DNA from: the human T2T-CHM13v2.0 reference genome, Homo sapiens
Reading direction: 5' to 3'
Assembly: GCA_009914755.4 (NCBI GenBank)
Contig: CP068257.2
Span: 8,128,001-8,192,000, forward strand
Length of the DNA: 64,000 nt
The stretch's first letter is position 1. Each line of letters starts with the position of its first letter. Made by a program: the position numbers and the translations under genes. The notes beneath the pieces were generated by a model. The model was not told where the DNA came from. It saw only the letters and a list, made by a program, of their open reading frames with translations, and ran no database searches. Positions 34,001 to 64,000 of the stretch are shown here, piece after piece.

Positions 34001-34094
34001 TTCTAATCCCTTCCATTCCATTCCATTCCTTTCGAGTCCATTCCATTCCAGTCCATTCCTTTCGAGTATATTCCATTCCACTCCATTCCATTCC

Positions 34095-37700: not shown

Positions 37701-37869
37701 CCATTCCATTCCATTCCATTGCTTTCCATTCGATTCCATTACATTGGAGTCTATTCCATTCCAGTTGGTTCCATTCCATTATATTCCATTATATTCCATT
37801 CGAGTCCATTCCATTCCTGTCCATTCCATTCGACTCCATTCCACTCCATTCCATTTTATTCCATTCCAT

Positions 37870-38520: not shown

Positions 38521-39315
38521 ACATTCCATTCAAGTTCATTCCACTCCACCGCATTTCAATCCATTCCTTTCCTTTTCAGTCCATTTGATTCAATTCCACT
38601 CTACTCCACTCCATTCCTTTCCATTCCATTCCATTCCATTGAACTGCAATCCAATCCACTCCACTCAACTCCACACTACTCCACTCAACTCCTTTCCCTT
38701 CTGTTCCATTCCATTCCATTCAATTCCATTCCATTCCATTCCACTCCATTCCACTGCACTCCATTGCATTTCACTCCATTATACTCCATTCCACTCCATT
38801 CCACTCCACTCCACTCCACTCCATTCCATTCCACTGCACTCCGGTCCACTCCACTCAACTCCACTCCACTCCACTCAACCTCCACTCCATTCTATTCTGT
38901 TCCCTTCCATTCTGTACCATTCCATTCCATTCCACTCCACTCCATTCCACTCCACTCCATTCCACAACATTCCACTCCATTCCACTGCACTCCACTCCAC
39001 TGCACTCCATTCCATTCCACTCAACTGCACTCCATTCCATTCCACTGCATTCCATTCCGTTGCATTCCACTCCATTCCAATGCACTCCATTCCACCCCAC
39101 TCCACTCCATTATACTCCATTCCAATTCATTCCATTAATTTCCATTGCCTTCTACTCCATTCCATTTCATTCACTTCCACTCCATTCCTCTCCACTCCAT
39201 TCCACTCCTTTCTGTTACTGTCCACTCCACTCCATTCCACTCCTTTCCTTTCTGTTCCATTCCACTCCACTCCATTCAATTCCACTCTACTCCATTCCAT
39301 TCCATTCCTTTATTT

Positions 39316-39372
39316 CAATTGGCTGTAACTCTGTCTCCCAGACTGTAGTGCAGTGACACAATCTTAGCTCTC
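39316..39372 (-). mobile_element. Short Alu-derived fragment, Alu right-arm 3' part in antisense orientation, embedded in HSat3.
   Basis: The window reads gtaactctgtctcccagactgtagtgcagtgacacaatcttagctctc. This matches the Alu antisense sequence tcgctctgtcgcccaggctggagtgcagtggcgcgatctcggctcac. Mismatches fall mainly at Alu CpG sites, which have decayed to CA or TA. The ~80 bp from 39,311 to 39,394 does not fit the pentamer pattern. Confidence 0.4.
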
Positions 39373-40714
39373 ATTTCCTTTCACCACTGTGTTCCATTCC
39401 ATTCCATTCCACTCCACTCCACTCCATTCCACTCCACTCTATTCCATTTCATTCCATTCCATTCCATTCCATTGCACTCTCATCCACTCAACTCAACTCC
39501 TCTGCACTCCACTCCACTCCATTCCGTTCCATTCCACTCCTTTCCATTACATTCCATTCCTTTCCATTCCATTCCTTTCCACTCCACTTCATTTCAATCC
39601 ACTCCTTTCCATTAAATTCCTCCCTACTCCACTCCTCTCCACTCCATTCCATTCCATTCGACTGCACTCTGATCCACTCCACTCAACTCCACTCCACTCA
39701 ACTGCACTCCACCCCACTCCACTCCATTCCACTCCACTCCACTCCATTCTGCTCCTCTCCATGCCATTCCACTCCACTCCATTCCATTCCACTCCGCTCC
39801 ACTCCATTTCATTCCACTCCAGTCCTTTACATTACACTCCACTCCATTCCATTCCATTCCAGTCCACTCCACTCCACTCCATTCCACTCCACTCCATTCC
39901 ATTCCATTCGACTGCACTCTGATCCACTCCACTCAACTCCACTCTTCTGTTCTCCATTCCGTTCCATTCTGTCGCATTCCATTCCTTTCCATTGTATTCC
40001 ATCCCACTCTAATCCATGCCATTCCACTCCTTTCCTCTCCTCTTCACTCCACTCCAATCCACTCCACTCCATTCCATTCCATTTCATTCTATTCCACTGC
40101 ATTCTGATACACTACTCTCAACTCCACTGCACTCCAGTGCACTCCATTCCACTCCTTTCCATTCCTTTCCATTCAGTTCCGTTCCATTCCATTCCATTCC
40201 CCTCCACTGCATTCCACTCCACTCCATTTCACTCCATTCCACTCCCTTCCACTCTTCTTCACTCCACTCCACTCCAGTCTATTCCACTCTAATCCATTCC
40301 TTTCCACTCCACTCCAGTCCATTCCACTCTAATCCATTCCTTTCCACTCCACTCCACTCCATTCCATTCCACTCTATTCCATTCCTTTCCACTCTATTCC
40401 ATTCCATTCCATTCAATTGCACTCCATTCAACTCCACTCCACTCCACTCTCCAATTCACTCTACTCCACTCCACTTTAATCCACTCCTTTCCACTCCACT
40501 CCATTCCAGTCCACTCTATTCCATTTGACTCCACTCCTCTCCACTCCACTCCATTCCATCCCATTCCTTTCAAATCCCCTCCATTCCGTTGCACTCCTCT
40601 CCACTCCACTCCACTCCAATTGTCACCACTCCACTCTACTCCTTTCCATTCCACTCCACTCAATTCCATTCCCTTCCATTCTGTTCCATTCCGTTTCATT
40701 CCACTGCACTCTGA

Positions 40715-41484
40715 TCTTCACATAAAAACTAGACAGAAGATTTCTGAGAAACTTTTTTGTGATATGTGCATTCACCTCACAGAGTTTAACCATTCTTTTG
40801 ATTGAGCAGTTTGGTAAAAGTCTTGTTGTAGAATCTACAAAAGGATATTTGTGAGCACTTTGAAGCCTGAGGTGAAAAAGTAAATATCTTCACAGCAAAA
40901 CTAGAAAGATGGTGTCTGAGAAAGTGCTCTGTGATGTTTGAATTCATCTCACAGACTTCAACTTTTATATTGATTTAGCATATTGGAAACAGTCTTTTTG
41001 TAGAATCTCCAAAGGGATATTTTTGTACACTTGGAGGCCAATAGTGAGAAAGGAAATATCTTCACATGAATACTAGACAGAAGCTTTCTGAGAACTTCTG
41101 TTTTATGTGTGCATTCCTCTCAAACAGTTGAACCATTCTTTTGATTGAGCAGTTTGGAAACAGTCTTTTTGTAGAATCAGCAAAGGGATATTGTGAGCGC
41201 TTTGAGTCCTACGGGGAAAAAGGAAATATTTTCACATAAAAACTCTACAGAAGGTTTCTGAGAAACTGCTTTGTAATGTGTGCATTCATCTCACAGAGGT
41301 AAATGTTTCTTTTCATTGAGTAGATGGGAAACTCTTTTCTTGTAGAATCTGCAAAGGGATATTTGTGAGCACTTTGAGGCTTATGGTGAAAAAGGAAATA
41401 TCTTCATATAAAATGTAGACAGAAGCTTTCTGAGGAACATATTTGTGATTTATGCATTCATCTCATAGAGTTGAACCATTCTTA
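40715..41484 (+). repeat. Alpha satellite, divergent monomeric type, ~4.5 monomers of 171 bp in consensus orientation.
   Basis: The region begins tcttcacataaaaactagacagaagatttctgagaaacttttttgtgatatgtgcattcacctcacagagtttaaccattcttttgattgagcagtttgg. It shows the canonical alpha monomer landmarks, repeated with a ~171-bp period. Confidence 0.95.
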
Positions 41485-42670
41485 TTTTTTTTGGAGCTCT
41501 GGGTTTATTTTTTAATTATTTACTTTTATTATTATTATACTTTAAGTTTTAGGGAACATGTGTACAACGTGCAGGTTTGTTACATATGTATACATGTGCC
41601 ATGTTTGTGTGTTGCTCCCATGAACTCATCATTTAGCATTAGGTATACCTCCTAATGCTATCCCTCCCCCTCCCCCTCCTCCCACCCAACTACAATCCCT
41701 GGTGTGTGGTGTGTGATGTTTCCCTTCCTGTGTCCATGTGTTCTCTTCGATCAATTCCCAACTATGTGTGAGAACATGTGGTGTTTTATTTTTTGTCCTT
41801 GCGATAGTTCGCTGAGAATGATGGTTTCCAGCTTCATCCATGTCCCTACAAAGGACATGAACTCATCATTTTTTATGGCCACATAGTCTTCCATGATGTA
41901 TATGTGCCACATTCTCTTCATCCAGTCTACAGTGGTTGGACATTTACGTTGGTTCCAAGTCTTTGCTATTGTGAATAGTGCTGCTATAAACATACGTGTG
42001 CATGTGTCCTTATAGCAGCATGATTTATAGTCCTTTGGGTATATACCCAGTAATGGCATGGCTGGCTCAAGTGGTATTTCTAGTTCTGGATCCCTGAGGA
42101 ATCGCCATGCCGACTTCCACAATGGTTGAACTAGTTTACAGTCCCACCAACAGTGCAAAAGTGTTCCTATTTCTCACATCCTCTCCAGCACCTGTTGTTT
42201 CCTGACTTTTTAATGATCGCCATTCTAACTGGTGTGAGATGGTATCTCATTGTGGTTTTGACTTGCATTTCTCTGATGGCCAGTGAAGATGAGCATTTTT
42301 TCATTGTTCATTGGCAGCATAAATGTCTTCTTTTGAGAAATGTCTGTTCATATCCTTTGCCCACTTTTTGATGGGGTTGTTTGGTTTTTTTCCTGTAAAT
42401 TTGTCTGAGTTCATTGTAGATTCTGGATATTAACCCTGTGTCAGATGAGTAGGTTGCAAAATTTTTCTCCCATTCTATAGGATTCCTGTTCACTCTGATG
42501 GTGTTTTCTTTAGCTGGGCAGAACCTCCTTAGTTTAATGAGATCCCATTTGTCAATTGTGACTTTTGTTGCCATTGCTTTAGGTGTTTTAGACATGAAGA
42601 TCTTGCCCATGCCTATGTCCAGAATGCTATGGCCTAGGTTTTCTTCTAGAAATTTTATGTGATGCGTTAT
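41485..42670 (-). mobile_element. LINE-1 (L1PA-type) 3' end fragment, 5'-truncated to ~1.2 kb: poly-A tail, 3'UTR and the C-terminal part of ORF2.
   Basis: On the + strand a T8 run at 41,485-41,492 is followed by ggagctctgggtttattttttaattatttacttttattattattatactttaagttttagggaacatgtgtacaacgtgcaggtttgttacatatgtatacatgtgccatg...attaggtatacctcctaatgctatccctccccc. This is the reverse complement of the canonical L1 3'UTR end. The minus-strand ORFs 41751..42158 and 42308..42610 encode recognisable L1 ORF2 C-terminal peptide ([16 protein letters not shown]..., ...MFSHIVGN* and [27 protein letters not shown]...). Similarity to L1 fades at ~42,640-42,670. Confidence 0.9.
41751..42610 (-). pseudogene. 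L1 ORF2 C-terminal remnant. Only the 3' end of the gene is present and it is interrupted by a frameshift or stop between the two ORF pieces, so it is non-functional.
   Basis: Two separate minus-strand ORFs of 135 aa and 100 aa both align conceptually to the last ~300 residues of human L1 ORF2p. No 5' part, endonuclease domain or RT core is present. Confidence 0.85.
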
Positions 42671-45600
42671 TTTGATTAATGAGTTTGGATACTATGTTGT
42701 TGTAGAATCTGCAAGGAGATATTTGTGAGCGCTTTGAGGCCTTTGGTGAAAAAGGAAATACCTTCACATAATAAATAGACAGAAGTTCTCTGAGAAACCT
42801 CCCTGTCATGTGTGCATTCATCTCACATAGTTGAAACAGTCTTTTGACTGAACAGCTTGAAAACTGTCAATTTGTAGAATCTGCAATGGGATATTTGTGA
42901 GCCCTTTGAGGCCTATGGTGAGAAAGGAAATATCTTCAATAAAAACTATAAAGAATGTTTCTGAGAAGCTGTTTTGCAAGGTTTGCCCTCATCTCAGAGA
43001 GATAAAAGTATCTATTCTTTGATGAGTCTGGAAACTCTGTTCTTGTAAAATCTGCAAAGGGATATTTGTGAGTGGCTTGAGGCCTACGGTAAAAAAGGAA
43101 ATGTCTTCACATAAAAACTACACAGAAGATTTCAGAGAAACTTCTTTGTGATATATGCATTCATCTCACAGAGTTGAACCATTCTTTTGATTGAGAAGTT
43201 TGGAAACAGTCTTTTCAGAGAATCTGCAAAAGGATATTTTGAGCGCTTTGTTACGTATGGTGAAAAGGGAAATATCTTCACATAAAAAGTGGACAGAAGC
43301 TTTTGGAGAAACTTCTTTGTGATGTGTGCATTCATCTCACAGATTTGAACCTTTCTTTTGATTGAGCAGTTTGAAAAGAGTCCTTTTCTAGAATCTGCAG
43401 AGGGATATTTGTGAGCCCTTTATGGCCTAAGGAGAAATAGGAAATATCTTCACATAAAAACTAGACAGAAGCATTCTGAGAAACTTCTTGGTGACATGTG
43501 CATTTATAACACAGAGTTGATCCCTTCTTTTGATTAAACAGTTTGGTAACAGTCTTTTTGTAGTATCTGTAGAGGGATGTTTGTGAGCAGTTTGAGGCCT
43601 ATGGTGAACAAAGAAATATCTTCACATAAAAACTAGACAGAAGCTTTCTGAGAAACTTCTTTGTGATGTGTGAATTAATCTCAGAGTGTTGAACCTTTCT
43701 TTGGATGGAGCAGTTTGTAAACAATCTTTTTGTAGAATCTGCAAAGGTATATCTCTGAGCCCATTGAGGCCTATGGTGAAATATGAAATATCTTCCCATA
43801 AAAACTAGACAGAAGGTTTCTAAGAAACTTCTTTGTGATGTGTGCTTCCATCTCACAGAGTTGAACCTTTCTTTTGATTGAGCAGTTTGGAAACCACCTT
43901 TTTGTAGAATCTGCAAATGGATATTTAGAGCGCTTTGAGGCCTATGGTAAAAAAGGAAATATCATTACATAAAAATTCGACGGAAGCATTCTGAGAAACT
44001 TCTTTGTGAGGTTTTCATTCATCTCACACAGATGAACATTTATTTGATTGAAGATTTGACAACAGTATTTTTGTAAAATCTACAAAGGGATAATTGTGAA
44101 CCCTTTGAGGCCTATGGTGAAGTAGGAAATATCTTCACATAAAAACTACACAGAAACTTTCTGAGAAACTATTTTGTGATGCTTGCATTCATCTCACAAA
44201 GTTGAACCTTTCCTTTGCTAGAGCAGTTTGGAAACAGTCCTATTGTAGAATCCCCAAAGGGATATTTCTCAGCTGATTGAGGTCTTTGGTGATATAGGAA
44301 ATATCTTCACATAAAGCTAGACAGAAGCTTTCTGAGAAACTTATTTTTAATGAGTGCTTTCATCTCAAAGAGTTAAGCATTTCTTTTACTGAGCAGTTTG
44401 GAAACACTCTTTTTGCATAATCTGCAAATGGATAATTGGAGCGTTTCGAGGCCTATGGTGAAAAAGCAAATATCTTCACATAAAAACTAAACAGAAGCTT
44501 TCTGAGAAACTACTTTGTAATGCGTGCATTCATCTCACAGCGTTGAAATCTTCTTTTGATTGAACAGTTTGTAAACAGTCTTTTTGTAGAATCTACAAAT
44601 GGATATTTGGAGTGCTTTGAGGCCTATGGTAAAAAAGGAAATATCTTCACAAAAAAACTAGAAAGAAACATTCTGAGAAACTTCTTTGTGATATGTGCTT
44701 TCATCTCACAGAGATGAACCTTTCCTTTCATTGAGCAGCTTGGAAACAGACTTTTTATAGAATCTGGAAATGCATATTTGGAGCGCTTTGAGGCCTGCGG
44801 TGAAAAAGGAAATATCTTCAGATAAACACTAAACAGAATCTTTCTAAGAAACTTCTTTGTGATGCGTGCATTCATATCATAGAGCTGAAACTTTCTTTTG
44901 ATTTAGCAGTTTGTAAACAGTCTTTTGGTAGAATCTGTGAATGGCTATTTCGAGCGTGTTGAGGCCTATGGTGAAAAAGGAAATATCTTCACAAAAAAAC
45001 TACAAATATACATTCTGAGAAACTTCTTTGTGATGTGTGCTTTCACTTCACAGAGTTGAAACTTTCTTTTGATTGAGCTATTTGGAAACAGTCTTTTTGT
45101 GGAATCTGCAAATGGATATTTGGAGCACTTTGAGGCCTACGGTGAAAAAGGAAATACCTCACATGAACCCTAGACAGAAGTATTCTGAGAAACTTCTTTG
45201 TCTTGTGTCCATTCATCTCACAGAGTTGAACCTTTCTTTGGATTGAGCAGTTTGGAAACAGTCTTATTGTAGAATCTGCAAAAAATATTTTTGAGCCCTT
45301 TATGGCCCATGGTGAAACAGGAAATATTCTCAAAGAAAAACTAGACAGAAGCTTTCTGAGAAACTTCTTTGTGATGCGTGCTTTCAACACATGGAGTTGT
45401 ACCTTTCTTTTGATTGAGCAGTTTGGAAAGGGTCTTTTTGTGGAATCAGCAAATGGATGTTTGGAGCGCTTTGAGGCCTATGGTGAAAAAGTAAATACCT
45501 TCACATAAAAAACAGACAGAAGCATTGTGAGAAACATCTCTGTGATGTGTGCATTCATTTCATACAGTTGAATCTTTCTTTGATTGAGGAGTTTAGAAAC

Positions 45601-48600
45601 AGTCTTTTTGTGGAATCAGCAAATGGATGTTTGGAGCACTTTGAGGCTTATGGTGAAAAAGGAAATACCTTCACATAAAAAATAGACAGAAGGATTGTGA
45701 GAAACATCTATGTGATGTGTGCATTCATCTCATAGAGTTGAACCTTTCTTTGATTGAGCAGTTTGGAAACAGTCCTTTTGTAAAATCTGCAAAGGGGTAT
45801 TTCTGAGCCCATTGAAGCCTAGGGTGAAAAAGAAATGTCTTCACATAAAAATTAGATAGAAGCATTCTGATAAACTTTTTTGTGGTGTGTCCATTCATCT
45901 CGCAGAGTTGAAACTTTCTGTGGATTGAGCAGTTTGGAAACAGCCTTTTTGTAGAATTTACAAAAATATTTGTGAGCACTATATGGCCCATGGTGAAATA
46001 GGAAATACCTTCACACAAAAACTAGACAGAAGCTTTCTGAGAAACTACTTTGTGATGTTTGCTTCCGTGTCACAGGGTTGAAACTTTCTTTTGATTGAGC
46101 AGTTTGGAAACACTCTTTTTGTAGAATCTACAAATGGGTATTTGGAGTGCTTTGAGGCCTATAGTGAAAAAAGAAATATTTTCACCGAAAAACTAGATAG
46201 ATGTATTCTGCAAAACTTCTTTGTGATGTGTGCATTCATCTCATAGAGTTGAATCTTTCTTTGGATTCAGCAGTTTTCTAAACAGTCCTTTTGTAGAATC
46301 TGCAAACGGATAATTCTGAGCCCACTGAGTCCTATGCTGAAAAAGGAAATATCTTCACATAAAAACCTAAAAACTAGACAGAAGCATTCTGAGAAACCTC
46401 TTTCTGGTGTGTGCATTCATCTCACAGAGTTGAACCTTTCTTTAGTTTGAACAGTTTGGAAACAGTCTTTTTTTTGAATATGCAAATGGATATTTGTGAG
46501 CCCTTTACAGCCTATGGTGAAATAGGAAATATCTTCACATAAAAACCAGACAGTAGCATTCTGAGAAACTTCTTTGTGATGTGTGTATTCATCTCACAGA
46601 ATTGAACATTTCTTTGGATGCAGCAGTTTGGAAACAGTCTTTTTGTAGTATCTGCAGAGGGATATTCATGAGCAGTTTAAGGCCTATGGTTAAAAAGGAT
46701 ATATCTTCACAGAAAACCTCGACAGATCCATTGTGAGAAACTTCTTTTAGATGTGTGCATTCATCTCACAGAGTTGAACCTTTCTTTGGATTGAGCAGTT
46801 TTCTAAACAGACCTTTTGTAGAATCTACAAAGGGATACTTCTGAGCCCGTTGAGGCCTATGGTGAAAAAGGAAATATCTTCACATGAAATCTTAACAGAA
46901 GCTTTCTGAGAAACTTCTTTGTGATGTGTGCATTCATCTCACAGTGTTGAAACTTTCTTTTGATTGAGCAGTTTGGAAATAGTCTTTTTGTACAATCTGC
47001 AAAGGGATATTCCTGAGCCATTTGAGGCTATTGTGAGATAAATATCTTCATATAAAAACTAGACAAAAGCATTCTAAGAAACTTCTTTGTAATGTGTGCA
47101 TTCATCACACAGAGTTGAAACTTTCTTTCGATTGTGCAGTTTGGAGACAGTATTTTTGTATAATATGCAAAAGGATATTTTTGAGCCCTTTCAGGCCTAT
47201 GGTGAAATAGGGAATATCTTCACACACAAAAAAAAACTAGACAGAAGCTTTCTGAGAAAATTCTTTGTGATGTGTGCTTTCGTCTTACAGAGTTGAACTT
47301 TTCTTTTGATTGAACAGTTTGGAAACATTCTTTTTGTAGAATCTGAAGATGGATATTTGCAGCATTTCAGGCCTATGGTGAACAGGAAATGTCTTCACAT
47401 AAAAACTAGAGAGAAGCATTCTGAGAAAGTTCCTTGTGATGTGTGCATTCATGTCACAGAGTTGAAACTTTCCTTGGATTGAGCAGTTTGGAAAGAGTCC
47501 TTTTGTAGAATCTGCAAAAGGATGTTTGTGAGCACATTGGAGCCTATGGTGAAATGGGAAATGTCTTCACATAAAAACTAGACAGAAGTTTTCTGTAAAA
47601 CTTCTTTGTGCTGTGTGCTTTCACCACAAGGAGTTGAACCTCTCTTTTGATTGAGCAGTTTGGAAACACTCTTTTTGTAGAACTTGCAAACGGATATTTG
47701 TAGTGCTTTGAGGCCTATGGTGAAAAAGAAAATATCTGCATATAAAAACTAGTCGGAAACTTTCTGGGAAACTTTCTGAGAAACTTCTTTGTGATGTGTG
47801 CTTTCATCTCACAGAGTTGGATCTTGTTTTCATTGAGCAGTTTGGCAACAAGTCATTTTGTAGAATCTGAAAAGTGATATTTGTGAGTGGTTTGAGGCCT
47901 ATAGTGAAAAAGTAAATATCTTCACCTAAAACCTAGACAGAAGCATTTTGAGAAAACTCTTTGTGATGTTTGCATTCATCTCACTGAGTTGAACCTTTCT
48001 ATTCATTAAGCAGTGTGGAATCTTACTTTTTGTGCGATCTGCAAAGGAATATTTGTTTGCAGTTTGAGACCTATGGTGAAAAAGTAATATCTTCACATAA
48101 AAACTAGACAGTAGCATTCTGAGAAACTAATTTTTTTATGTGTGCATTGATCTCACAGAGTTGAACCTTTCTTTTGATGAGGCAGTTCAGAAACAGTTTT
48201 TTGTAGAATCTGAAAAGGGATATTTTTTATCTCTTTGAGGCCTAAGGTGAAATAGAAAATATCTTCACATAAAAACTAGACAGAAACTTTCTGAGAAACT
48301 TCTTTGTGATGTAGGCTTTCATCTCATAGATGTGAACCTTTATTTTGATTGAGCAGTTTGGAAAGAGTCTTTTGTAGTGTCTGAAGTGGGCTATTAGTGA
48401 GTGGACTGAGGCCTATGGTGAAAAAGGAAATGGCTTCTCAAAAAAAGTATACAGAAGCATTCTGAGAGACTTCTTTGTAATGTGCACATTCATCTTAAAG
48501 TGTTAAACATTTCTTTTGATTGAGCTTTTTGGAAACACTCTTTTTGTAGCATCTGCAAGTGTATACTTCTGAGCCCATTGAGACCTATTTTGAAATATGA

Positions 48601-51174
48601 AATATCTTCACATAAAAACTAGATAGAAGGTTTCTAAGAAACTCCTTGGTGAAGTGTGCTTTCATCTCACAGAGTTGAAACTTTCTTGTGATTAAGCAGT
48701 TTGAAAACACTCTTTTTGTAGATTCTGCAAGTGGATATTTGGAGCACTTTGAGACCCATGGTGAAAAAGGAAATATCTTCACATAAAAACTAAACAGAAG
48801 TTTTCTGAGAAACTTCTTTGTGATATGTGCATTCATCACACAGAGTTGAACCGTTCTTTTGATTGAGCAATTTGGAAAAAGTCTTTTTGTAGAATCTGCA
48901 AATGGATATTTGGAGCACTTTGAGGCCTATGGTGAAAAATGAAACTTCTTCATATAAAACAAGACAAAAGCATTCTGAGAAACTTCTTTGTGATGTGTGA
49001 CAAAGTTTAGCCTTTCTTTTCATCGAGCAGTTTGGAAGCAGTCTTTTTGGAGAATCTGCAAAGGGATATTTGTTAGTGGTTTGTGGCCTATGGTGAAAAA
49101 GGAAATACCTTCACATAAAAACCAGACAGAAGCTTTTTGAGAAACCTCTTTATGATGTTTGCATTCATTTCACAGAGTCGAATCTTCCTTTTCATTGAGC
49201 AGTTTGGAAACAGTCTTTTTCCACAATCTGTAAAGGGATATTTCTGAGTGATATTTCTGAATGAAGAAATATCTTCATATAAAAATTAGACAGAAGTATT
49301 CTGGGAAACTTCTTTGTGATGTGTGCATTCAAACCACAGAGTTGAAGCTTTCATTTCATTGAGTAGTTCAGAAATAGTCTTTTCATACAATCTGCAAAGG
49401 GATATTTCTGAGCCCTTTGAGGCCTATGGTGAAATAGGAAATATCTTTACATAAAAACTAGACAGAAGCTTTCTGAGGAACTTCTTTGTGATGCGTGCTT
49501 TCATCTCACAGAGTTCAACCTTTTTTTTTGATGGAGCAGTTTGGATACAGTCATTTTGTAGAATCTGCAAAGGGATATTTCTGAGTCCTTTGAGTCCTAT
49601 AGTGAAATAGGGATTATCTTCACATAATAACTAGACAGAAGCATTCTGAGAAACTTCCTTGTGATGTGCCCTTTCATTTCACAGAGTTGAACCTTTCCTT
49701 TGATTGAGCAGTTTGGAAACACTCTTTTTGTAGAACCTGTAAACAGATATTTGGAGCGCTTTGAGGCATAAGGTGAAAAAGGAAGAATCTGCACACAATA
49801 ACTAGATAGAAACTTTCTGAGAAACTTCTTCATGATGCGTGCTTTCATCTCACAGATTCAAACCTTTCTTTTCATTGAGTAGTTTAGGAACAAGTCATTT
49901 TGTAGAATCTGCAAAGTTATATTTGTGAGCTGTTTGAGGCCTATGGTGAAAAACAAAATATCTTCACATAAAAACCAGACAGAAGATTTTTGAGATAAAT
50001 CTTTGTGATGTTTGCATTCATCTCAAAGAGTTGAACTTTTCTGTTCATTGAGGAGTTTGGAAACTTTCTTTTTGTGCAAACTGCAAAGGAGTGTTTCTGA
50101 GTGGTTTGAGGCCTATGGTGAAAAAGAAATAACTTCACATAAAAACTAGACACAAGCATTCTGAGAAACTTCTTTTTTATCTGTGCATTCACCTCACAGA
50201 GTTGAACCTTTCTTTTCATTGAGCAGTTCAGAAACAGTCTTTTTGTAGAATCTGCAAAGGGATATTTGTGATCCCATTGAGGCCTACGGTGAAATAGGAA
50301 ATATCTTCACATAAATACTAGACAGAAGCTTTCTGAGAAACATCTTTGTGATGTGTGCTTTCATCCTACAGAGTTGAACCCTTCTGTTGATTGATCACTT
50401 TGGAAACAGTCTTTGGAAGAATCTACAAATGGATATTTGGAGAGCTTTGAGGCCTAGGTTTAAAAAGGAAATATATTCACATAAAAAGTAGAGGGAAGCA
50501 TTTTGAGAAACTTCTTTGTGATGTGTGCTTTCATTTCACAGAGTTGAATCATTATTTTGGCTGAGCATCTTGGAAACAGTCTTTTTGTACAATCTGCAAA
50601 GGGATATTTGTGAGCCCTTTATGGCCTGTGGTGAAATACGAAATATCTTCACATAAAAACTAGACAGAAGATTTCTGAGAAACTTCTTTGTGATGTGTGC
50701 CTTCATCTCACAGTGTTGAACATTTCTTTTGATTGATCAGTTTGGAAAGTTTTTTTGTAGAATCTGCAAATGGATATTTGGAGATATTTGAGGCCTGTGG
50801 TGAAAAAGGAAGTATCTTAACATAAAAACTAGACAGAAGATTTCTGGAAAACTTCTTTGTGATGTGTGAATTCATGTCACAGAGTTGAAGCTTTCTTCTG
50901 ATTGAGTAGTTTGGAAACAGTCTTTTTGTAGAATCTGCAAAGGGTTATTTATGAGCGGTTTGAGGCCTATGGTGAAAAAGGGAGTATCAGCAAATAAAAA
51001 CTAGACAGAAACTTTCTGAGAAACTTCTCTGTGATGTGTGCATTCATCTCGCAGAGTGGAAGTTTTCTTTGATTGAGCAGTTTGGAAACAGTCTTTTTGT
51101 AGAATCTGCAAAGGGATATATGTAGGTGGTTTGAGGTCTATAGTGAAAATGGAAATATCTTCACATAAAAACTA
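42671..51174 (+). repeat. Alpha satellite, divergent monomeric array of ~50 monomers in consensus orientation, with no HOR structure detected.
   Basis: It continues the monomer interrupted by the L1: ...aaccattctta[L1]ttattttgattaatgagtttgg. Monomers share the ttctgagaaacttctttgtgatgtgtgcattcatctcacagagttgaac...ggcctatggtgaaaaaggaaatatcttcacataaaaactagacag frame but differ pairwise by roughly 15-30%. ORF-track peptides from different monomers are not repeated. Small lesions are visible, for example a truncated monomer at ~49,241-49,270 and a 12-bp aaactttctg duplication at ~47,750. Confidence 0.9.
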
Positions 51175-52700
51175 ACTGCTCAATGGGAAGAAATTTTTAC
51201 TTCTGTGTGATAAATGCAAATGTCACAAAGGAGTTACTCAGAAAACTTCTTTCTGCTTTTAATGTGAAGATATTTCCTTTTTCACCATATGCCTCAATGT
51301 GCTCGCAGATATCCCTTTGCAGATTCTACAAAAATACTGTTTCCAAACTGCTCAATAAACAGAATGGTTCAACCCTGTGAGACGAATGTGCACATCACAA
51401 AGAAGTTTCTCAGAAAACTCCCTTCTCATTTTTATGTGAAGATATTTCCTTTTAGAACATAGGCCTAAATGCACTCCCAAATATACCTTTGCAGAATCTA
51501 CAAAAAGACTGTTTCCAAACTGCTCAATCAAAAGAAAGTTTCAACTCTGTTAGATGAATGCACACATCAGGAAGTACTTTCTCAGCAAGCTTCTCACAAG
51601 TTTTTATGTGAAGATATTTCCTTTTTCAAAGTGGGTCACAAAGCACTCAAAAAAATCCCTTTGCAGACTCTAGAATAACAGAGTTTACAAACTACTCAAT
51701 GAAAAGAAATGTTTACTTCTGTGAGATGAATACACATATCTTAAAACAGCTTCTCAGAATGCTTATTTCTAGTTTTTATGTGAAGATATTTCCTTTTTCA
51801 CCATAGGCTTCAACTTGCTCCTAAATATCCCTTTGCAGATTCTACAAAACGACTGTTTCCAAACTGCTCATTCCAAAGACAGGTTCAGCTCTTTGAGATG
51901 AATGCACACAACACAAAGAAGTTTCTCAGAATGCTTCTACCTAGTTTTTATGTGAAGATATTTCCTTTTCCAACAGAGGCCTTAAACTGTTCTCACATAT
52001 ACCTCTTCAGATACTACAAAAAGACTGTTTCCAGACTGCTCCATCAAAAGAAAAGTTCAACTCTGTGAGATAAATGGATACATCACAAAAAATTTTCTCA
52101 GAATACTTCTGTCTACATTTTATCTGAAGATATTCCTTTTTCACCATAGGCCTCTAACTTCGCAGAAATATTCCTTTGCAGATTTTACAAAAAGACTGTT
52201 TCCAAACTGCTCAATGAAAAGAAAGTTTCACCTCTGTGAGATGTATGCAGTCATCAAAAGGAAGTTTCTCAGAAAGCTTCTGTTTATATTTCATGTGAAG
52301 ATATGTCCTTTTTCACCATAGGCCTCAAAGTGCTTGAAGTATCATTTGCAGATTCTACAAAAAGACTGTTTCCAAACTGCTCAATCAAAAAAAAGGTTCA
52401 AACCTGTGAGATGAAAGCACACATCATTAAGAAGTTTCTCAGAATGCTTCTGTCTAGTTTTTATATGAAGATATTTCCTTTTCCACCATAGGCCTCAAAG
52501 TGCTCCAAATATCCACTTGAACACTCTATGAAACAGTTTTTCAAAACTGCTCAATAAAAGAAAGATTCAGCTCTGTGACATGAATGCACACAGCACAAAG
52601 AAGTTTCTCAGAATGCTTGTGTCTAGTTTTTATGTGAAGATGCTTCCTTTTCCACCAGAAGCCTCAAAGCACTTCAAATATACACTTGCAGATACTGCAA
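51175..52700 (-). repeat. Alpha satellite in inverted (minus) orientation. About 9 divergent monomers lie between the inversion breakpoint and the HOR array.
   Basis: From 51,175 the + strand reads ctgctcaatgggaagaaatttttacttctgtgtgataaatgcaaatgtcacaaaggagttactcagaaaac, the reverse complement of the canonical monomer. These monomers are not copies of the downstream HOR units, as I found on comparing 51.2-52.5 kb with 55.1-56.7 kb. Confidence 0.85.
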
Positions 52701-52825
52701 AAAGAGTGTTTCAAAACTGCTCAATCAATAGAAAGTTTGAAGTCTGTGAGATGAATGCACACATCACAAAGAAGTTTCTGAGAATGCTTCTGCCTTGTTT
52801 TTATGAGAAGATATTTCCTTTTTCA
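52701..52825 (-). repeat. Array-edge hybrid monomer at the start of the HOR array.
   Basis: 52,700-52,760 resembles the monomer at ~56,100-56,230 (caaaaagagtgtttcaaaactgctcaatcaatagaaagtttgaagtctgtgagatgaatgcacacatcacaaag). The sequence then runs directly into ccataggcctcaaagcactggtaatatcc, which in full HOR copies lies three monomers further on (56,741). Confidence 0.5.
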
Positions 52826-55800
52826 CCATAGGCCTCAAAGCACTGGTAATATCCATTTGCAGATACTACAAAAAGACTGTTCCCAAACTGCTCAATAAAA
52901 AGAAAGTTTCAACTCTAGGAGATAAAAGCAAATATCACAAAGAAGTTTCTCAGAAACTTTCTATCTAGTTTTTATGTGAACATATTTCTTATCACCCCAT
53001 AGACCTCAATCGGCTCACAAGTATCCTTCTGCAGATTGTAAAAAAGTACTGTTTCCAAACCGCTCAATCACAGGAAAGGTTTAACTCTGTGAAATGAATG
53101 CATCCATCACAGAGAAGTTTCTCAGAATGCTTCAGTCTCGTTTTCATGTGAAGAAGATTCCTTTTCCACCATATTCCTCATGTGCTCCAAATAAACACTT
53201 GCAGATTCCGCTAAAAGAGTGTTTCAAAACTGCTCAATCAAAAGAAAGGTTCTAGTCGGTGAGATGAATGCACACATCACAAAGAAGTTTCTATGAATGT
53301 TTCTGTCTGATTTATATTGAAGATATTTCCTTTTTAACCGTAGGCCTCAGAGTGCTTAAAATATCCATTTGCAGATACTAGAAAAGACTGTTTCCAAACT
53401 GCTCAATCAAAGTAAAGTTCAACTCAGTGAGATGAATGCACACATCACCAAGACGTTTCTGAGAAAGATTCTGTCTCGTTTTTCTGTGAAGATATTTCCT
53501 GTTTCCCCAGAGGCATCAATGGGCTCACAAATATTCCTTTGCATATTCTACAAAATGACTGTTCAGAAGGTGCTCAATCAAAAAAAAAGTTCAACAGTGT
53601 GAGATGAATGCGCCCATTCAAAGGAAGTTTCTCAGAATTCTTCTATCTAGTTTTTATGTGAAGATATTTCCTTTTTCACTATAGGCCACAAAGTGCTCCA
53701 AATATCCACTTGCAGACTCTACAAAACGAGTGTATCCACACTGCTCAATCAAAAGAAAATTTCAACTGTGTGAGATGAATGCACACATCAAAATAAATTT
53801 CTCCAAAACTTCTGCCTACTTTTTATGGGAAGATATTTCGTTTTTCAACGTAGGCCAAAAGCACTCCAAATATCAATTTGCAGATTCTACAAAAAGACTG
53901 TTTCCAAACTGCTCAATCAAGAGAAAGTTTCAACCCGGTGAGTAGAAGTCACACATGACAAAATAGTTTCTCAGAAAGTATCTGTCTAGTTTTTATGTGA
54001 AGATATTTCCTATCACCCCAGAAGCCTCAATGGGCTCACAAATATTCCTTTGCAGATTCTACAAAACGACAGTTTCAAAACTGCTGAATCAAAAGAAAGG
54101 TTCAACTCTGTGAGATGAATGCACAGATCACAAATAAGTTTCTCAGAATGCTGCTGTCTAGTTTTTATGGGAAGATAATTCCTTTTCCACCATAGGCCTC
54201 AAAGCTCTCCAAATAGCCATTTGCAGATACTGTAAAAAGACTGTTTCCAAACTGCTGAATCAAAAGAAAGGTTGAACTCCATGAGTTGAATGCACACGTC
54301 ACAAAGAAGTTTCTCAGAATGGTTCTGACTAGTTTTTATGTGAAGATATTTTCTTTTCCACCATAGGCCTCAAAGCGCTGAAAATATCCACTTGAAGATT
54401 CTACAGAAAGAGAGTTTCAAAACTGCTCAAACAAAAGAAAGATTCAACTCTGTGAGATGAATGCACACATCACAAAGAAGTTTCTCAGAATGCTTCTGTC
54501 TAGTTTTATGTAAAGATATTTCCTTTTCTACTATAGGCCACAAAGCACTCCAAATATCAACTTGCAGATTCTGCAGAAAGAGATTTTCAAAGCTGCTCAA
54601 TCAAAAGAAAAGTTCAACTCTTTGAGATGAATGCACACATCATGAAGTTCCTCAGAATGCTTCTATTTTTATGTGAAGATATATCCTTTTCTACCATAGA
54701 CCACAAAACGCTCCAAATATCCCCTTGCAGTTTCTACTAAAAGAGTGTTTCCAAACGGCTCAATCAAAAGAAAGTTTCAACTCTGTGAGATGAATGCACA
54801 CATCATAAAGAAGTTTCTCAGTAATTTTCTGTCTAGTTTTTATGTGAAGATATTTCCTTTCCTACTATAGGCATGAAAGTGCTGCAAATATCCGTTTGCA
54901 GATACTGCAAAAAGACTGTTTCCACACTGCTCAATCAAAGGAAATGTCCAACTCTTTGAGTTGAATGCATGCATCTCGAAGAGATTACTTATAATGATTC
55001 TGTCTAGTTTTGATGTGAAGATATTTGCTTTTCCACCAGTGGCCTCAAACTCTCCAAATATCCACTTGCAGATTCTACAATAAGAGTGTTTCAAAACTGC
55101 TCAATCAAAAGAAAGGTTCAACACTGTGAGATGAATGCACACGTCACAAAGCACTTTCTTAGAATGCTTCTGTCTAGCTTTTATGTGAAGATATTTCCTT
55201 TTTCACCATAGGCTGTAAAGCGCTCCAAATATCCCTTTCAGATTCTACAGAAAGAGTATTTCAAAACTGTTCAATCAAAAGAGAAACTCAACTCTGGTGA
55301 TGAATGCACGCATCACAAAGCAGTTTCTCATAATGTTTCTGTCTAGTTTTTATGTGAAGATATTTCCTTTTCCACTATAGGCCGTAATGCACTCCTAATA
55401 TCCACTTGCAGATTCTACAGAAAGACTGTTTGCAAACTGCTCAAACAAAAGAAAAGTTCAACTCTGTGAGTTGAATGAGCACATCACAAAGAAGTTTCTC
55501 AGAATGCTTCTGTCTAGTTTTTATGTGAATATATTTCCTTTTCCACTATACGCCGTCATGCGCTCCAAATATCCACTTGCAGATTCTACAAAAAGACTGA
55601 TTCCAAACTGCTCAATCAAAAGAAAAGCTCAACTCTGTGAATTGAATGAGCACATCACAAAGAAGTTTCTCAGAATGCTTCTATCTCGTTTTTATGTGAA
55701 TATATTTCCTTTTCCACCACAGGCCACAAACACTCCAAATATCCACTTGAAGATTCTACAAAAAGAGTGCTTCAAAAATGCTCAATCAAAAGAAAGGTTC

Positions 55801-56740
55801 AACTCTTTGAGATGGATGCACACATCACAAAGAAGCTTCTCAGAATGTTTCTGTCTAGTTTTTTTGTGAAGATATTTCCTTTTCCACCGTAGTCCTCAAG
55901 TCTCTCCAAATATCTACTTTCAGAATCTCCAAAAAGAGTGTTTTAAAACTGCTGTACCAAAGAAAGTTTCATGTCTGAGATATGACTGCATACAACACAG
56001 AGAAGTTTCTCAAAGTGCTTCTGTTTATTTTTTTTATGAAGATATTTCCTTTTCCACTATGGGCCACAGAGCGCTCCAAATATCGACTTGCAGATTCTAC
56101 AAAAAGAGTGTTTCAAAACTGCTCAATCAATAGAAAGTTTGAAGTCTGTGAGATGAATGCACACATCACAAAGGAGTTTCTAAGAATGCTTCCATCTGAA
56201 TTTTATGTGAGGATATTTCCTTTTTCACCATAGGCCTCAGTACACTCCAAATATCCATTTACAGATAATACAAATGACTGTATCCAAACTGCTCAATCAA
56301 AAGAAAGTTCAACTGTGTATGATGAAGGCACACATCACAAGGCTGTTTCTCAGAAAGATTTTGTCTAGTTTTTAGGTGAAGATATTTCTTATTTCCCCAG
56401 AGGCCTCAATGGGCTCTCAAATATTCCCTTTCATATTCTACTAAATGACTGTATCGAAGCTGCTCAATCAAAAGACGGGTTTAACAGTGTGAGACGAAAA
56501 TACACCTTCCTAGGAAGTTTCTCAGAATTCTTCTTTCTAGTTTTTTATGTGAAGATATTTCCTTTTCCACTATAGGCCTCAAAGCGTTCCAAATATCCAC
56601 TTGCAGATACCACAAATAGAGCGTTTCAAAACTGCTCAATCAAAAGAAAGGTTCAACTCTGTGAGATGAATGCAGACATCAAAAAGAAGTTTCTCAGAAT
56701 GCTTCCGCCTAGTTTTTATGTGAAGATATTTCCTTTTTCA
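52826..56740 (-). repeat. Alpha satellite HOR copy 1, 3,915 bp (~23 monomers), the short form with a single copy of the 333-bp dimer.
   Basis: The anchor ccataggcctcaaagcactggtaatatccatttgcagatactacaaaaagactgttcccaaactgctcaataaaaag occurs at 52,826, 56,741 and 60,988. ORF-track peptides recur at the same 3,915/4,247-bp offsets (53369/57284/61531, 53730/57645/61892, 54840/59088/63335, 55982/60229). Confidence 0.85.
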
Positions 56741-59700
56741 CCATAGGCCTCAAAGCACTGGTAATATCCATTTGCAGATACTACAAAAAGACTGTTCCCA
56801 AACTGCTCAATAAAAAGAAAGTTTCAACTCTATGAGATAAAAGCAAATATCACAAAGAAGTTTCTCAGAAACTTTCTATCTAGTTTTTATGTGAACATAT
56901 TTCTTATCACCCCATAGACCTCAATCGGCTCACAAGTATCCTTCTGCAGATTGTAAAAAACTACTGTTTCCAAACCGCTCAATCACAGGAAAGGTTTAAC
57001 TCTGTGAAATGAATGCATCCATCACAGAGAAGTTTCTCAGAATGCTTCCGTCTCGTTTTCATGTGAAGAAGATTCCTTTTCCACCATATTCCTCATGCGC
57101 TCCAAATAAACACTTGCAGATTCCGCTAAAAGAGTGTTTCAAAACTGCTCAACCAAAAGAAAGGTTCTAGTCGGTGAGATGAATGCACACATCACAAAGA
57201 AGTTTCTATGAATGCTTCTGTCTGATTTATATTGAAGATATTTCCTTTTTCACCGTAGGCCTCAGAGTGCTTAAAATATCCATTTGCAGATACTAGAAAA
57301 GACTGTTTCCAAACTGCTCAATCAAAATAAAGTTCAACTCAGTGAGATGAATGCACACATCACCAAGACGTTTCTGAGAAAGATTCTGTCTCGTTTTTAT
57401 GTGAAGATATTTCCTGTTTCCCCAGAGGCATCAATGGGCTCACAAATATTCCTTTGCATATTCTACAAAATGACTGTTTAGAAGGTGCTCAATCAAAAAA
57501 AAAGTTCAACAGTGTGAGATGAATGCGCCCATTCAAAGGAAGTTTCTCAGAATTCTTCTATCTAGTTTTTATGTGAAGATATTTCCTTTTTCACTATAGG
57601 CCACAAAGTGCTCCAAATATCCACTTGCAGACTCTACGAAACGAGTGTATCCACACTGCTCAAACAAAAGAAAATTTCAACTGTGTGAGATGAATGCACA
57701 CATCAAAATAAATTTCTCCAAAACTTCTGCCTACTTTTTATGGGAAGATATTTCGTTTTTCAACGTAGGCCAAAAGCACTCCAAATATCAATTTGCAGAT
57801 TCTACAAAAAGACTGTTTCCAAACTGCTCAATCAACAGAAAGTTTCAACCCGGTGAGTAGAAGTCACACATGACAAAATAGTTTCTCAGAAAGTATCTGT
57901 CTAGTTTTTACGTGAAGATATTTCCTATCACCCCAGAAGCCTCAATGGGCTCACAAATATTCCTTTGCAGATTCTACAAAAAGGCAGTTTCAAAACTGCT
58001 GAATCAAAAGAAAGGTTCAACTCTGGGAGATGAATGCACAGATCACAAATAAGTTCCTCAGAATGCTGCTGCCTAGTTTTAATGGGAAGAGATTTCCTTT
58101 TCCACCATAGGCCTCAAAGCTCTCCAAATAGCCATTTGCAGATACTGTAAAAAGACTGTTTCCAAACTGCTGAATCAAAAGAAAGGTTGAACTCCATGAG
58201 TTGAATGCACACGTCATAAAGAAGTTTCTCAGAATGGTTCTGACTAGTTTTTATGTGCAGATATTTTCTTTTCCACCATAGGCCTCAAAGCGCTGAAAAT
58301 ATCCACTTGAAGATTCTACAGAAAGAGAGTTTCAAAACTGCTCAAACAAAAGAAAGATTCAACTCTGTGAGATGAATGCACACATCACAAAGAAGTTTCT
58401 CAGAATGCTACTGTCTAGTTTTATGTAAAGATATTTCCTTTTCTACTCTAGGCCACAAAGCACTCCAAATATCAACTTGCAGATTCTGCAGAAAGAGTTT
58501 TTCAAAGCTGCTCAATCAAAAGAAAAGTTCAACTCCTTGAGATGAATGCACACATCATGAAGTTCCTCAGAATGCTTCTATTTTTATGTGAAGATATATC
58601 CTTTTCTACCATAGACCACAAAACGCTCCAAATATCCCCTTGCAGTTTCTACTAAAATAGTGTTTCCAAACGGCTCAATCAAAAGAAAGTTTCAACTTTG
58701 TGAGATGAATGCACACATCACAAAGAAGTTTCTCAGAATGCTTCTGTCTAGTTTTATGTAAAGATATTTCCTTTTCTACTATAGGCCACAAAGCACTCCA
58801 AATATCAACTTGCAGATTCTGCAGAAAGAGTTTTTCAAAGCTGCTCAATCAAAAGACAAGTTAAACTCTTTGAGATGAATGCACACATCATGAAGTTCCT
58901 CAGAATGCTTCTATTTTTATGTGAAGATATATCCTTTTCTACCATAGACCACAAAACGCTCCAAATATCCCCTTGCAGTTTCTACTAAAAGAGTGTTTCC
59001 AAACGGCTCAATCAAAAGAAAGTTTCAACTCTGTGAGATGAATGCACACAACATTAAGTAGTGTCTCAGTAATTTTCTGTCTAGTTTTTATGTGAAGATA
59101 TTTCCTTTCCTACTATAGGCCTGAAAGTGCTGCAAATATCCGTTTGCAGATACTGCAAAAAGACTGTTTCCACACTGCTCAATCAAAGGAAATGTCCAAC
59201 TCTGTGAGTTGAATGCACGCATCTCAAAGAGATTACTTATAATGATTCTGTCTAGTTTTGATGTGAAGATATTTGCTTTTCCACCAGTGGCCTCAAACTC
59301 TCCAAATATCCACTTGCAGATTCTACAATAAGAGTGTTTCAAAACTGCTCAATCAAAGAAAGGTTCAACACTGTGAGATGAATGCACACGTCACAAAGCA
59401 CTTTCTTAGAATGCTTCTGTCTAGCTTTTATGTGAAGATATTTCCTTTTTCACCATAGGCTGCAAAGCGCTCCAAATATCCCTTTCAGATTCTACAGAAA
59501 GAGTATTTCAAAACTGTTCAATCAAAAGAGAAACTCAACTCTGGTGATGAATGCACGCATCACAAAGCAGTTTCTCATAATGTTTCTGTCTAGTTTTTAT
59601 GTGAAGATATTTCATTCTCCACTATAGGCCGTAATGCACTCCTAATATCCACTTGCAGATTCTACAAAAAGACTGTTTGCAAACTGCTCAAACAAAAGAA

Positions 59701-60987
59701 AAGTTCAACTCTGTGAGTTGAATGAGCACATCACAAAGAAGTTTCTCAGAATGCTTCTGTCTAGTTTTTATGTGAATATATTTCCTTTTCCACTATAGGC
59801 CATCATGCGCTCCAAATATCCACTTGCAGATTCTACAAAAAGACTGTTTCCAAACTGCTCAATCAAAAGAAAAGCTCAACTCTGTGAGTTGAATGAGCAC
59901 ATCACAAAGAAGTTTCTCAGAATGTTTCTATCTAGTTTTTATGTGAATATATTTCCTTTTCCACCACAGGCCACAAAACCTCCAAATATCCACTTGAAGA
60001 TTCTACAAAAAGAGTGCTTCAAAAATGCTCAATCAAAAGAAAGGTTCAACTCTTCGAGATGGACGCACACATCACAAAGAAGCTTCTCAGAATGTTTCTG
60101 TCTAGTTTTTTTGTGAAGATATTTCCTTTTCCACCGTAGTCCTCAAGTCTCTCCAAATATCTACTTTCAGAATCTCCAAAAAGAGTGTTTTAAAACTGCT
60201 GTACCAAAGAAAGTTTCATGTCTGAGATATGACTGCATACAACACAGAGAAGTTTCTCAAAGTGCTTCTGTTTATTTTTTTTATGAAGATATTTCCTTTT
60301 CCACTATGGGCCACAGAGCGCTCCAAATATCGACTTGCAGATTCTACAAAAAGAGTGTTTCAAAACTGCTCAATCAATAGAAAGTTTGAAGTCTGTGAGA
60401 TGAATGCACACATCACAAAGGAGTTTCTAAGAATGCTTCCATCTGAATTTTATGTGAGGATATTTCCTTTTTCACCATAGGCCTCAGTACACTCCAAATA
60501 TCCATTTACAGATAATACAAATGACTGTATCCAAACTGCTCAATCAAAAGAAAGTTCAACTGTGCATGATGAATGCACACATCACAAGGGTGTTTCTCAG
60601 AAAGATTTTGTCTTGTTTTTAGGTGAAGATATTTCTTATTTCCCCAGAGGCCTCAATGGGCTCTCAAATATTCCCTTTCATATTCTACTAAATGACTGTA
60701 TCGAAGCTGCTCAATCAAAAGACGGGTTTAACAGTGTGAGACGAAAATACACCTTCCTAGGAAGTTTCTCAGAATTCTTCTTTCTAGTTTTTTATGTGAA
60801 GATATTTCCTTTTCCACTATAGGCCTCAAAGCGTTCCAAATATCCAATTGCAGATACTACAAATAGAGCGTTTCAAAACTGCTCAATCAAAAGAAAGGTT
60901 CAACCCTGTGAGATGAATGCAGACATCAAAAAGAAGTTTCTCAGAATGTTTCCGCCTTGTTTTTATGTGAAGATATTTCCTTTTTCA
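56741..60987 (-). repeat. Alpha satellite HOR copy 2, 4,247 bp (~25 monomers), the long form with a tandem duplication of a two-monomer unit.
   Basis: The segment beginning cacatcacaaagaagtttctcagaatgct(a/t)ctgtctagttttatgtaaag occurs twice in tandem at 58,381-58,713 and 58,714-59,045. In copy 1 it occurs once, at 54,466-54,798. Copy 2 and copy 3 peptides are identical or differ by one residue. Confidence 0.85.
58714..59045 (-). repeat. Extra 332/333-bp alpha dimer. It is the second copy of the tandem duplication that distinguishes the long HOR form from the short one.
   Basis: It is near-identical to 58,381-58,713. Both copies are also present in copy 3 at ~62,625-63,290. Only one copy is present in HOR copy 1. 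Confidence 0.8.
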
Positions 60988-63900
60988 CCATAGGCCTCAA
61001 AGCACTGGTAATATCCATTTGCAGATACTACAAAAAGACTGTTCCCAAACTGCTCAATAAAAAGAAAGTTTCAACTCTAGGAGATAAAAGCAAATATCAC
61101 AAAGAAGTTTCTCAGAAACTTTCTATCTAGTTTTTATGTGAACATATTTCTTATCACCCCATAGACCTCAATCGGCTCACAAGTATCCTTCTGCAGATTG
61201 TAAAAAACTACTGTTTCCAAACCGCTCAATCACAGGAAAGGTTTAACTCTGTGAAATGAATGCATCCATCACAGAGAAGTTTCTCAGAATGCTTCCGTCT
61301 CGTTTTCATGTGAAGAAGATTCCTTTTCCACCATATTCCTCATGCGCTCCAAATAAACACTTGCAGATTCCGCTAAAAGAGTGTTTCAAAACTGCTCAAT
61401 CAAAAGAAAGGTTCTAGTCGGTGAGATGAATGCACACATCACAAAGAAGTTTCTATGAATGCTTCTGTCTGGTTTATATTGAAGATATTTCCTTTTTCAC
61501 CGTAGGCCTCAGAGTGCTTAAAATATCCATTTGCAGATACTAGAAAAGACTGTTTCCAAACTGCTCAATCAAAATAAAGTTCAACTCAGTGAGATGAATG
61601 CACACATCACCAAGACGTTTCTGAGAAAGATTCTGTCTCGTTTTTATGTGAAGATATTTCCTGTTTCCCCAGAGGCATCAATGGGCTCACAAATATTCCT
61701 TTGCATATTCTACAAAATGACTGTTTAGAAGGTGCTCAATCAAAAAAAAAGTTCAACAGTGTGAGATGAATGCGCCCACTCAAAGGAAGTTTCTCAGAAT
61801 TCTTCTATCTAGTTTTCATGTGAAGATATTTCCTTTTTCACTATAGGCCACAAAGTGCTCCAAATATCCACTTGCAGACTCTACGAAACGAGTGTATCCA
61901 CACTGCTCAATCAAAAGAAAATTTCAACTGTGTGAGATGAATGCACACATCAAAATAAATTTCTCCAAAACTTCTGCCTACTTTTTATGGGAAGATATTT
62001 CGTTTTTCAACGTAGGCCAAAAGCACTCCAAATATCAATTTGCAGATTCTACAAAAAGACTGTTTCCAAACTGCTCAATCAACAGAAAGTTTCAACCCGG
62101 TGAGTAGAAGACACACATGACAAAATAGTTTCTCAGAAAGTATCTGTCTAGTTTTTACGTGAAGATATTTCCTATCACCCCAGAAGCCTCAATGGGCTCA
62201 CAAATATTCCTTTGCAGATTCTACAAAACGACAGTTTCAAAACTGCTGAATCAAAAGAAAGGTTCAACTCTGGGAGATGAATGCACAGATCACAAATGAG
62301 TTTCTCAGAATGCTGCTGCCTAGTTTTAATGGGAAGAGATTTCCTTTTCCACCATAGGCCTCAAAGCTCTCCAAATAGCCATTTGCAGATACTGTAAAAA
62401 GACTGTTTCCAAACTGCTGAATCAAAAGAAAGGTTGAACTCCATGAGTTGAATGCACACGTCATAAAGAAGTTTCTCAGAATGCTTCTGACTAGTTTTTA
62501 TGTGAAGATATTTTCTTTTCCACCATAGGCCTCAAAGCGCTGAAAATATCCACTTGAAGATTCTACAGAAAGAGAGTTTCAAAACTGCTCAAAAAAAAGA
62601 AAGATTCAACTCTGTGAGATGAATGCACACATCACAAAGAAGTTTCTCAGAATGCTTCTGTCTAGTTTTATGTAAAGATATTTCCTTTTCTACTCTAGGC
62701 CACAAAGCACTCCAAATATCAACTTGCAGATTCTGCAGAAAGAGTTATTCAAAGCTGCTCAATCAAAAGAAAAGTTCAACTCCTTGAGACGAATGCACAC
62801 ATCATGAAGTTCCTCAGAATGCTTCTATTTTTATGTGAAGATATATCCTTTTCTACCATAGACCACAAAACGCTCCAAATATCCCCTTGCAGTTTCTACT
62901 AAAAGAGTGTTTCCAAAAGGCTCAATCAAAAGAAAGTTTCAAATCTGTGAGATGAATGCACACATCACAAAGAAGTTTCTCAGAATGCTTCTGTCTAGTT
63001 TTATGTAAAGATATTTCCTTTTCTACTATAGGCCACAAAGCACTCCAAATATCAACTTGCAGATTCTGCAGAAAGAGTTTTTCAAAGCTGCTCAGTCAAA
63101 AGACAAGTTCAACTCTTTGAGATGAATGCACACATCATGAAGTTCCTCAGAATGCTTCTATTTTTATGTGAAGATATATCCTTTTCTACCATAGACCACA
63201 AAACGCTCCAAATATCCCCTTGCAGTTTCTACTAAAAGAGTGTTTCCAAACGGCTCAATCAAAAGAAAGTTTCAACTCTGTGAGATGAATGCACACATCA
63301 TTAAGAAGTGTCTCAGTAATTTTCTGTCTAGTTTTTATGTGAAGATATTTCCTTTCCTACTATAGGCCTGAAAGTGCTGCAAATATCCGTTTGCAGATAC
63401 TGCAAAAAGACTGTTTCCACACTGCTCAATCAAAGGAAATGTCCAACTCTGTGAGTTGAATGCACGCATCTCAAAGAGATTACTTATAATGATTCTGTCT
63501 GGTTTTGATGTGAAGATATTTGCTTTTCCACCAGTGGCCTCAAACTCTCCAAATATCCACTTGCAGATTCTACAATAAGAGTGTTTCAAAACTGCTCAAT
63601 CAAAAGAAAGGTTCAACACTGTGAGATGAATGCACACGTCACAAAGCACTTTCTTAGAATGCTTCTGTCTAGCTTTTATGTGAAGATATTTCCTTTTTCA
63701 CCATAGGCTGCAAAGCGCTCCAAATATCCCTTTCAGATTCTACAGAAAGAGTATTTCAAAACTGTTCAATCAAAAGAGAAACTCAACTCTGGTGATGAAT
63801 GCACGCATCACAAAGCAGTTTCTCATAATGTTTCTGTCTAGTTTTTATGTGAAGATATTTCATTCTCCACTATAGGCCGTAATGCACTCCTAATATCCAC

Positions 63901-64000
63901 TTGCAGATTCTACAAAAAGACTGTTTGCAAACTGCTCAAACAAAAGAAAAGTTCAACTCTGTGAGTTGAATGAGCACATCACAAAGAAGTTTCTCAGAAT
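60988..64000 (-). repeat. Alpha satellite HOR copy 3, long form, truncated by the window end.
   Basis: It is collinear with copy 2 at a +4,247 offset throughout. Examples are 57284..57481 vs 61531..61728 (identical 65-aa peptide), 58017..58217 vs 62264..62464 (1 aa difference) and 59088..59342 vs 63335..63589 (1 aa difference). Confidence 0.85.

What the first reader, a model, noticed from the sequence alone, without database searches (positions are those of the whole stretch)
52826..64000. HOR array of ~23/25 monomers that appears to lack CENP-B boxes entirely
Three collinear copies, at offsets 3,915 and 4,247 bp, are at least 98-99% identical to each other. By contrast the neighbouring monomeric alpha is 15-30% divergent. 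At the position where B-type monomers carry the CENP-B box (consensus YTTCGTTGGAARCGGGA), every monomer I read has the A-type pJalpha-like motif instead: ttcctttttcaccatagg, with variants ttccttttccaccgtag and tttcgtttttcaacgtagg. I found no instance of TTCG....A..CGGG in either orientation anywhere in 40.7-64 kb. An all-A-type HOR without CENP-B boxes is unusual for autosomal active arrays and is typical of Y-centromere-like or inactive or divergent HORs. This bears on whether the array can be a functional kinetochore site.
Basis: partly seen in the sequence, partly recalled or inferred. Interest (0 to 1): 0.6.

Follow-up and report, generated by a model that had tools for sequence, protein, structure and literature searches.

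The report
Known inactive chr21-type alpha-satellite HOR
This is a real 23/25-monomer alpha-satellite higher-order repeat with no CENP-B boxes, but it is the already catalogued inactive "pseudocentromere" array of acrocentric short arms (S4/6C13/14/21H1, the chr21 23/25mer), so it is ordinary.

Summary
From 52807 to the window end there are 2.7 tandem copies of a 3,915-bp (23-monomer) or 4,247-bp (25-monomer) unit, 98.5-99.1% identical, while monomers within a unit are about 80% identical. No CENP-B box (TTCGNNNNANNCGGG) occurs anywhere in the window on either strand, even with one mismatch; a positive control finds the boxes in B-type consensus monomers. All 75 monomers read are nearer the A box than the B box, and 71 of 74 are closest to the M1 (SF4+) consensus. 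The array is not new. The 23 published consensus monomers of the T2T-CHM13 chromosome 21 "23/25mer HOR" map onto the window in order at 97-100% identity. The published copy order (23mer, 25mer, 25mer) and the t11-t12 duplication also match. By size, monomer number and location it corresponds to hg38 model GJ211961/GJ212124, named S4/6C13/14/21H1, classed "pseudo" and equated with pTRA-2/D21Z5. Absence of boxes is the ancestral state of type A alpha satellite. Interest is low.

The parts
52807..56721 (-). HOR copy 1, 23-monomer form (3,915 bp); canonical alpha orientation reads on the minus strand
56722..60968 (-). HOR copy 2, 25-monomer form (4,247 bp); published monomer types t1-t23 map here in order
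60969..64000 (-). HOR copy 3, 25-monomer form, cut by the window end
58366..59031 (-). Tandemly duplicated 333-bp dimer (t11-t12 region) in copy 2; the two halves are 326/333 identical
62613..63278 (-). The same duplicated dimer in copy 3 (325/333 identical)
51174..52806 (-). Monomeric M1-like alpha satellite flank, same orientation, not collinear with the HOR unit
42664..51173 (+). Monomeric alpha satellite in the opposite orientation; inversion junction near 51174
41485..42663 (-). LINE-1 3' end fragment inserted in monomeric alpha satellite
40714..41484 (+). Monomeric alpha satellite between HSat3 and the L1 fragment
18..40703 (.). Diverged (CCATT)n pentameric satellite, HSat3-like, abutting the alpha satellite

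Best explanation
This is the start of the known inactive alpha-satellite HOR array of acrocentric short arms, the chr21 23/25mer HOR. Its hg38 counterpart is most likely S4/6C13/14/21H1, equated with pTRA-2/D21Z5. A 23-monomer stretch of old type A (SF4+) monomeric alpha satellite was amplified in tandem, presumably by unequal crossing-over, and kept homogeneous. An unequal exchange within the unit duplicated one dimer and made the 25-monomer variant. It has no CENP-B boxes because type A monomers of this age never had them; the box first appears in SF5. Without boxes it cannot recruit CENP-B, and it is not the kinetochore site. Shown: the structure, the absence of boxes, the monomer class and the identity with the published HOR. 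Inferred: the amplification mechanism, the chromatin state and the exact genomic address.
For: Three copies at 98.5-99.1% identity against about 80% between monomers within a unit. 71 of 74 monomers are closest to the M1 consensus, using the consensus set from PMC4496801. Published t1-t23 map in order at 97-100% mismatch-only identity, with an extra t11-t12 pair. The published copy order 23mer, 2 x 25mer matches. If the window is CHM13 chr21:8,128,001-8,192,000, the published array start 8,180,952 falls on a monomer boundary at window 52952/3. GJ211961.2 is a 23-monomer 'pseudo' HOR named S4/6C13/14/21H1, has a 3.9-kb unit, is SF4+ and is confirmed on chr21 near 8.0 Mb in hg38; it equals GJ212124 = pTRA-2/D21Z5. 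B boxes first appear in SF5. Only one array per chromosome binds kinetochore proteins. CENP-B boxes are needed for de novo centromere assembly on alphoid DNA.
Against: The link to GJ211961 / pTRA-2 rests on unit length, monomer number, family and location, not on sequence comparison with X55367. The HOR is shared by chromosomes 13, 14 and 21, so the chromosome assignment rests on copy order and coordinate arithmetic. No CENP-A, CENP-B or methylation data could be examined. Gap columns against the published consensus (0-6 per monomer) probably come from PDF text extraction, but this was not proven.
Confidence: 0.93

Rival explanations
1. It is the chromosome 15 SF4+ 25/26-monomer HOR (4.3-kb unit, hg38 model GJ212036), which also lies near a large HSat3 block.
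For: Similar unit length, SF4+ class and HSat3 neighbourhood.
Against: Eight chr15 25/26mer consensus monomers reach only 82-88% identity anywhere in the window HOR, against 97-100% for the chr21 set.
Confidence: 0.01
2. It is only a local three-copy segmental duplication inside monomeric alpha satellite, not a true HOR array.
For: The window shows only 2.7 copies and is cut at 64000.
Against: The matching published array runs to chr21:8,253,585, about 72.6 kb with 19 copies. The hg38 model is 88 kb.
Confidence: 0.03
3. It is a formerly B-type or active array whose CENP-B boxes decayed by mutation.
For: None found. CpG-containing boxes can decay in principle.
Against: Every box region is 4-11 mismatches from the B box and nearer the A box. 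Whole monomers are closest to M1, not to any B-type class.
Confidence: 0.02

Closest known systems
T2T-CHM13 chromosome 21 23/25mer HOR array (Gluncic et al. 2025, PMC12385485)
   Same: Same 23 monomer types in the same order at 97-100% identity, same t11-t12 duplication in the 25mer, same order of the first copies.
   Different: Nothing substantive. The window holds only the first 2.7 of 19 copies.
S4/6C13/14/21H1 = hg38 GJ211961/GJ212124, equated with pTRA-2 / D21Z5
   Same: 23 monomers, 3.9-kb unit, SF4+ class, chr21 short arm, classed as pseudocentromere.
   Different: Identity inferred from size, class and location; no direct sequence comparison was possible.
DYZ3, the active Y-chromosome SF4 HOR
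   Same: All type A, SF4, no CENP-B boxes.
   Different: DYZ3 is an active centromere with a 34-monomer unit (title of bioRxiv 10.1101/768861); this array is inactive and has 23/25 monomers.
alpha21-I (D21Z1) 11mer, the active chr21 centromere array
   Same: Alpha-satellite HOR reported on chromosome 21.
   Different: SF2, with five CENP-B boxes per unit, and it forms artificial chromosomes; this array has none.

Membership tests
Alpha-satellite higher-order repeat | Multi-monomer unit repeated in tandem, with units far more alike than the monomers within a unit | tested here: met
   Units 98.5-99.1% identical; monomers within a unit average 79.6%
SF4+ / type A alpha satellite | Monomers closest to the M1 consensus, with an A box at positions 35-51 | tested here: met
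   71 of 74 closest to M1; 75 of 75 nearer the A box than the B box
CHM13 chr21 23/25mer HOR | 23 named monomer types in fixed order; 25mer form has t11-t12 duplicated | tested here: met
   t1-t23 map in order at 97-100% identity; extra pair at 58403-58735
S4/6C13/14/21H1 (pTRA-2 / D21Z5) | High sequence identity to GJ211961 or X55367 | not testable with these tools
   Only the 23-monomer, 3.9-kb, SF4+, chr21 short-arm attributes agree
B-box-bearing HORs (SF1-SF3) | CENP-B boxes in a regular subset of monomers | tested here: not met
   0 boxes, and 0 with one mismatch; the positive control works
Active centromere array | CENP-A / inner kinetochore protein binding | not testable with these tools
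   Literature: one active array per chromosome; the reference model is listed as 'pseudo'
Chromosome 15 25/26mer SF4+ HOR | High identity to its consensus monomers | tested here: not met
   82-88% best identity

The most novel reading that the evidence does not exclude
The unit may be a composite of two old layers. Monomers t21-t9 are less M1-like and show a weak 3/6-monomer periodicity, while t10-t20 are uniform M1-like. The 4-6 intact pJalpha sites per copy recur at equivalent positions, which could reflect a conserved CENP-B-independent role in acrocentric short-arm heterochromatin. The 'S4/6' name suggests the mixed make-up is already recognised.
Probability: 0.05. Interest if true: 0.3.

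Novelty: already known. Interest (0 to 1): 0.08.

Why it matters
It matters little beyond annotation. It is a clean example of a pseudocentromeric SF4+ HOR that lacks CENP-B boxes because its monomer type never had them. It shows that absence of boxes in a homogeneous HOR is not in itself anomalous. Such arrays are relevant to mapping and to homology among the short arms of chromosomes 13, 14 and 21.

Tried and rejected
The chr15 25/26mer HOR was the first candidate, on the 4.3-kb unit and HSat3 neighbourhood; it was rejected by sequence. D15Z4 FISH-probe literature gave nothing on HOR structure. A test for a palindromic relation between the inverted alpha blocks found only diffuse inverted k-mers. 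A test for the flanks being decayed HOR copies found no collinear register above background. Pfam did not recognise the L1 ORF2 fragment, but the PDB sequence search did. A direct-repeat search in the HSat3 block gave only pentamer-phase noise. The phage, plasmid, E. coli and prokaryote collections were not used, because they cannot hold this sequence.

Full report
Layout. The window holds a diverged (CCATT)n satellite at 18-40703. Alpha satellite in canonical orientation follows at 40714-51173, interrupted by a 1.18-kb insert at 41485-42663. There is an inversion junction near 51174, and alpha satellite in the reverse orientation runs from there to 64000.

Observation. K-mer offsets of 4,247, 3,915 and their sums dominate the alpha region. 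They resolve into three collinear copies: 52807-56721, 56722-60968 and 60969-64000. Identity between copies is 98.5-99.1%. Monomers within a unit average 79.6% identity (range 68-98%), and flanking monomers average 79-80%. The 333-bp length difference is a tandem duplication of one dimer in copies 2 and 3.

CENP-B boxes. The core motif TTCGNNNNANNCGGG has no hit, and none with one mismatch, on either strand of the whole window. Base composition alone predicts about 0.05 hits in the alpha region. The informative comparison is therefore with B-type arrays. The same scan finds the box in the J2, D1 and W1-W3 consensus monomers, and in five monomer types of the active chr21 11mer consensus. All 75 monomers are closer to the A box than to the B box. 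Only 4-6 monomers per copy carry the strict pJalpha consensus.

Classification. I used the twelve class consensus sequences from Shepelev et al. 2015 (PMC4496801). Of 74 monomers, 71 are closest to M1 (SF4+, type A); the other three tie among A-type classes.

Identity. Gluncic et al. 2025 (PMC12385485) describe a 23/25mer HOR array at T2T-CHM13 chr21:8,180,952-8,253,585. Its first copies are a 23mer followed by two 25mers, and the 25mer duplicates t11-t12. Their 23 consensus monomers map in order onto window 56697-60943 at 97-100% mismatch-only identity, with an extra pair at 58403-58735. If the window is chr21:8,128,001-8,192,000, their array start falls on a monomer boundary at window 52952/3; this address is an inference. 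The chr15 25/26mer is excluded at 82-88% identity.

Link to earlier names. hg38 model GJ211961.2 equals GJ212124.2. It has a 3.9-kb unit, is SF4+ and is confirmed on chr21 near 8.0 Mb. It is listed as 23 monomers, 'pseudo', S4/6C13/14/21H1, and is equated with pTRA-2/D21Z5. I infer this link from attributes, not from sequence.

Mechanism. Type A layers older than SF5 never had B boxes, so the absence is ancestral and not a loss. SF4+ HORs are viewed as recent amplifications of dead monomeric layers. The flank is not collinear with the unit, so the array edge is sharp. Only one array per chromosome binds kinetochore proteins. CENP-B boxes are required for de novo centromere assembly on alphoid DNA.

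Verdict.

Noticed in passing
window 41485-42663: LINE-1 3' end fragment on the minus strand with a poly(T) run at its low end. A 135-aa ORF matches the last 135 residues of L1 ORF2p (E = 1.6e-77). It is inserted in monomeric alpha satellite, as is typical of dead layers.
   Followed up: yes
window 51174-51228: Head-to-head inversion junction between two monomeric alpha blocks. The arms are not mirror copies of each other.
   Followed up: partly
window 18-40703: 40 kb of diverged (CCATT)n, HSat3-like, abutting alpha satellite directly at 40703/40714. G+C rises and CpG density falls between about 24 and 40 kb, which suggests a change of subfamily.
   Followed up: no
window 56268-58231 (monomer types t21-t9): Weak 3/6-monomer periodicity: identity is 79% at lag 3 and 82% at lag 6, against 76-77% at other lags. 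Every third monomer (t22, t2, t5, t8) carries a GGGG-type altered box. t10-t20 are uniform M1-like. This fits the mixed 'S4/6' name.
   Followed up: partly
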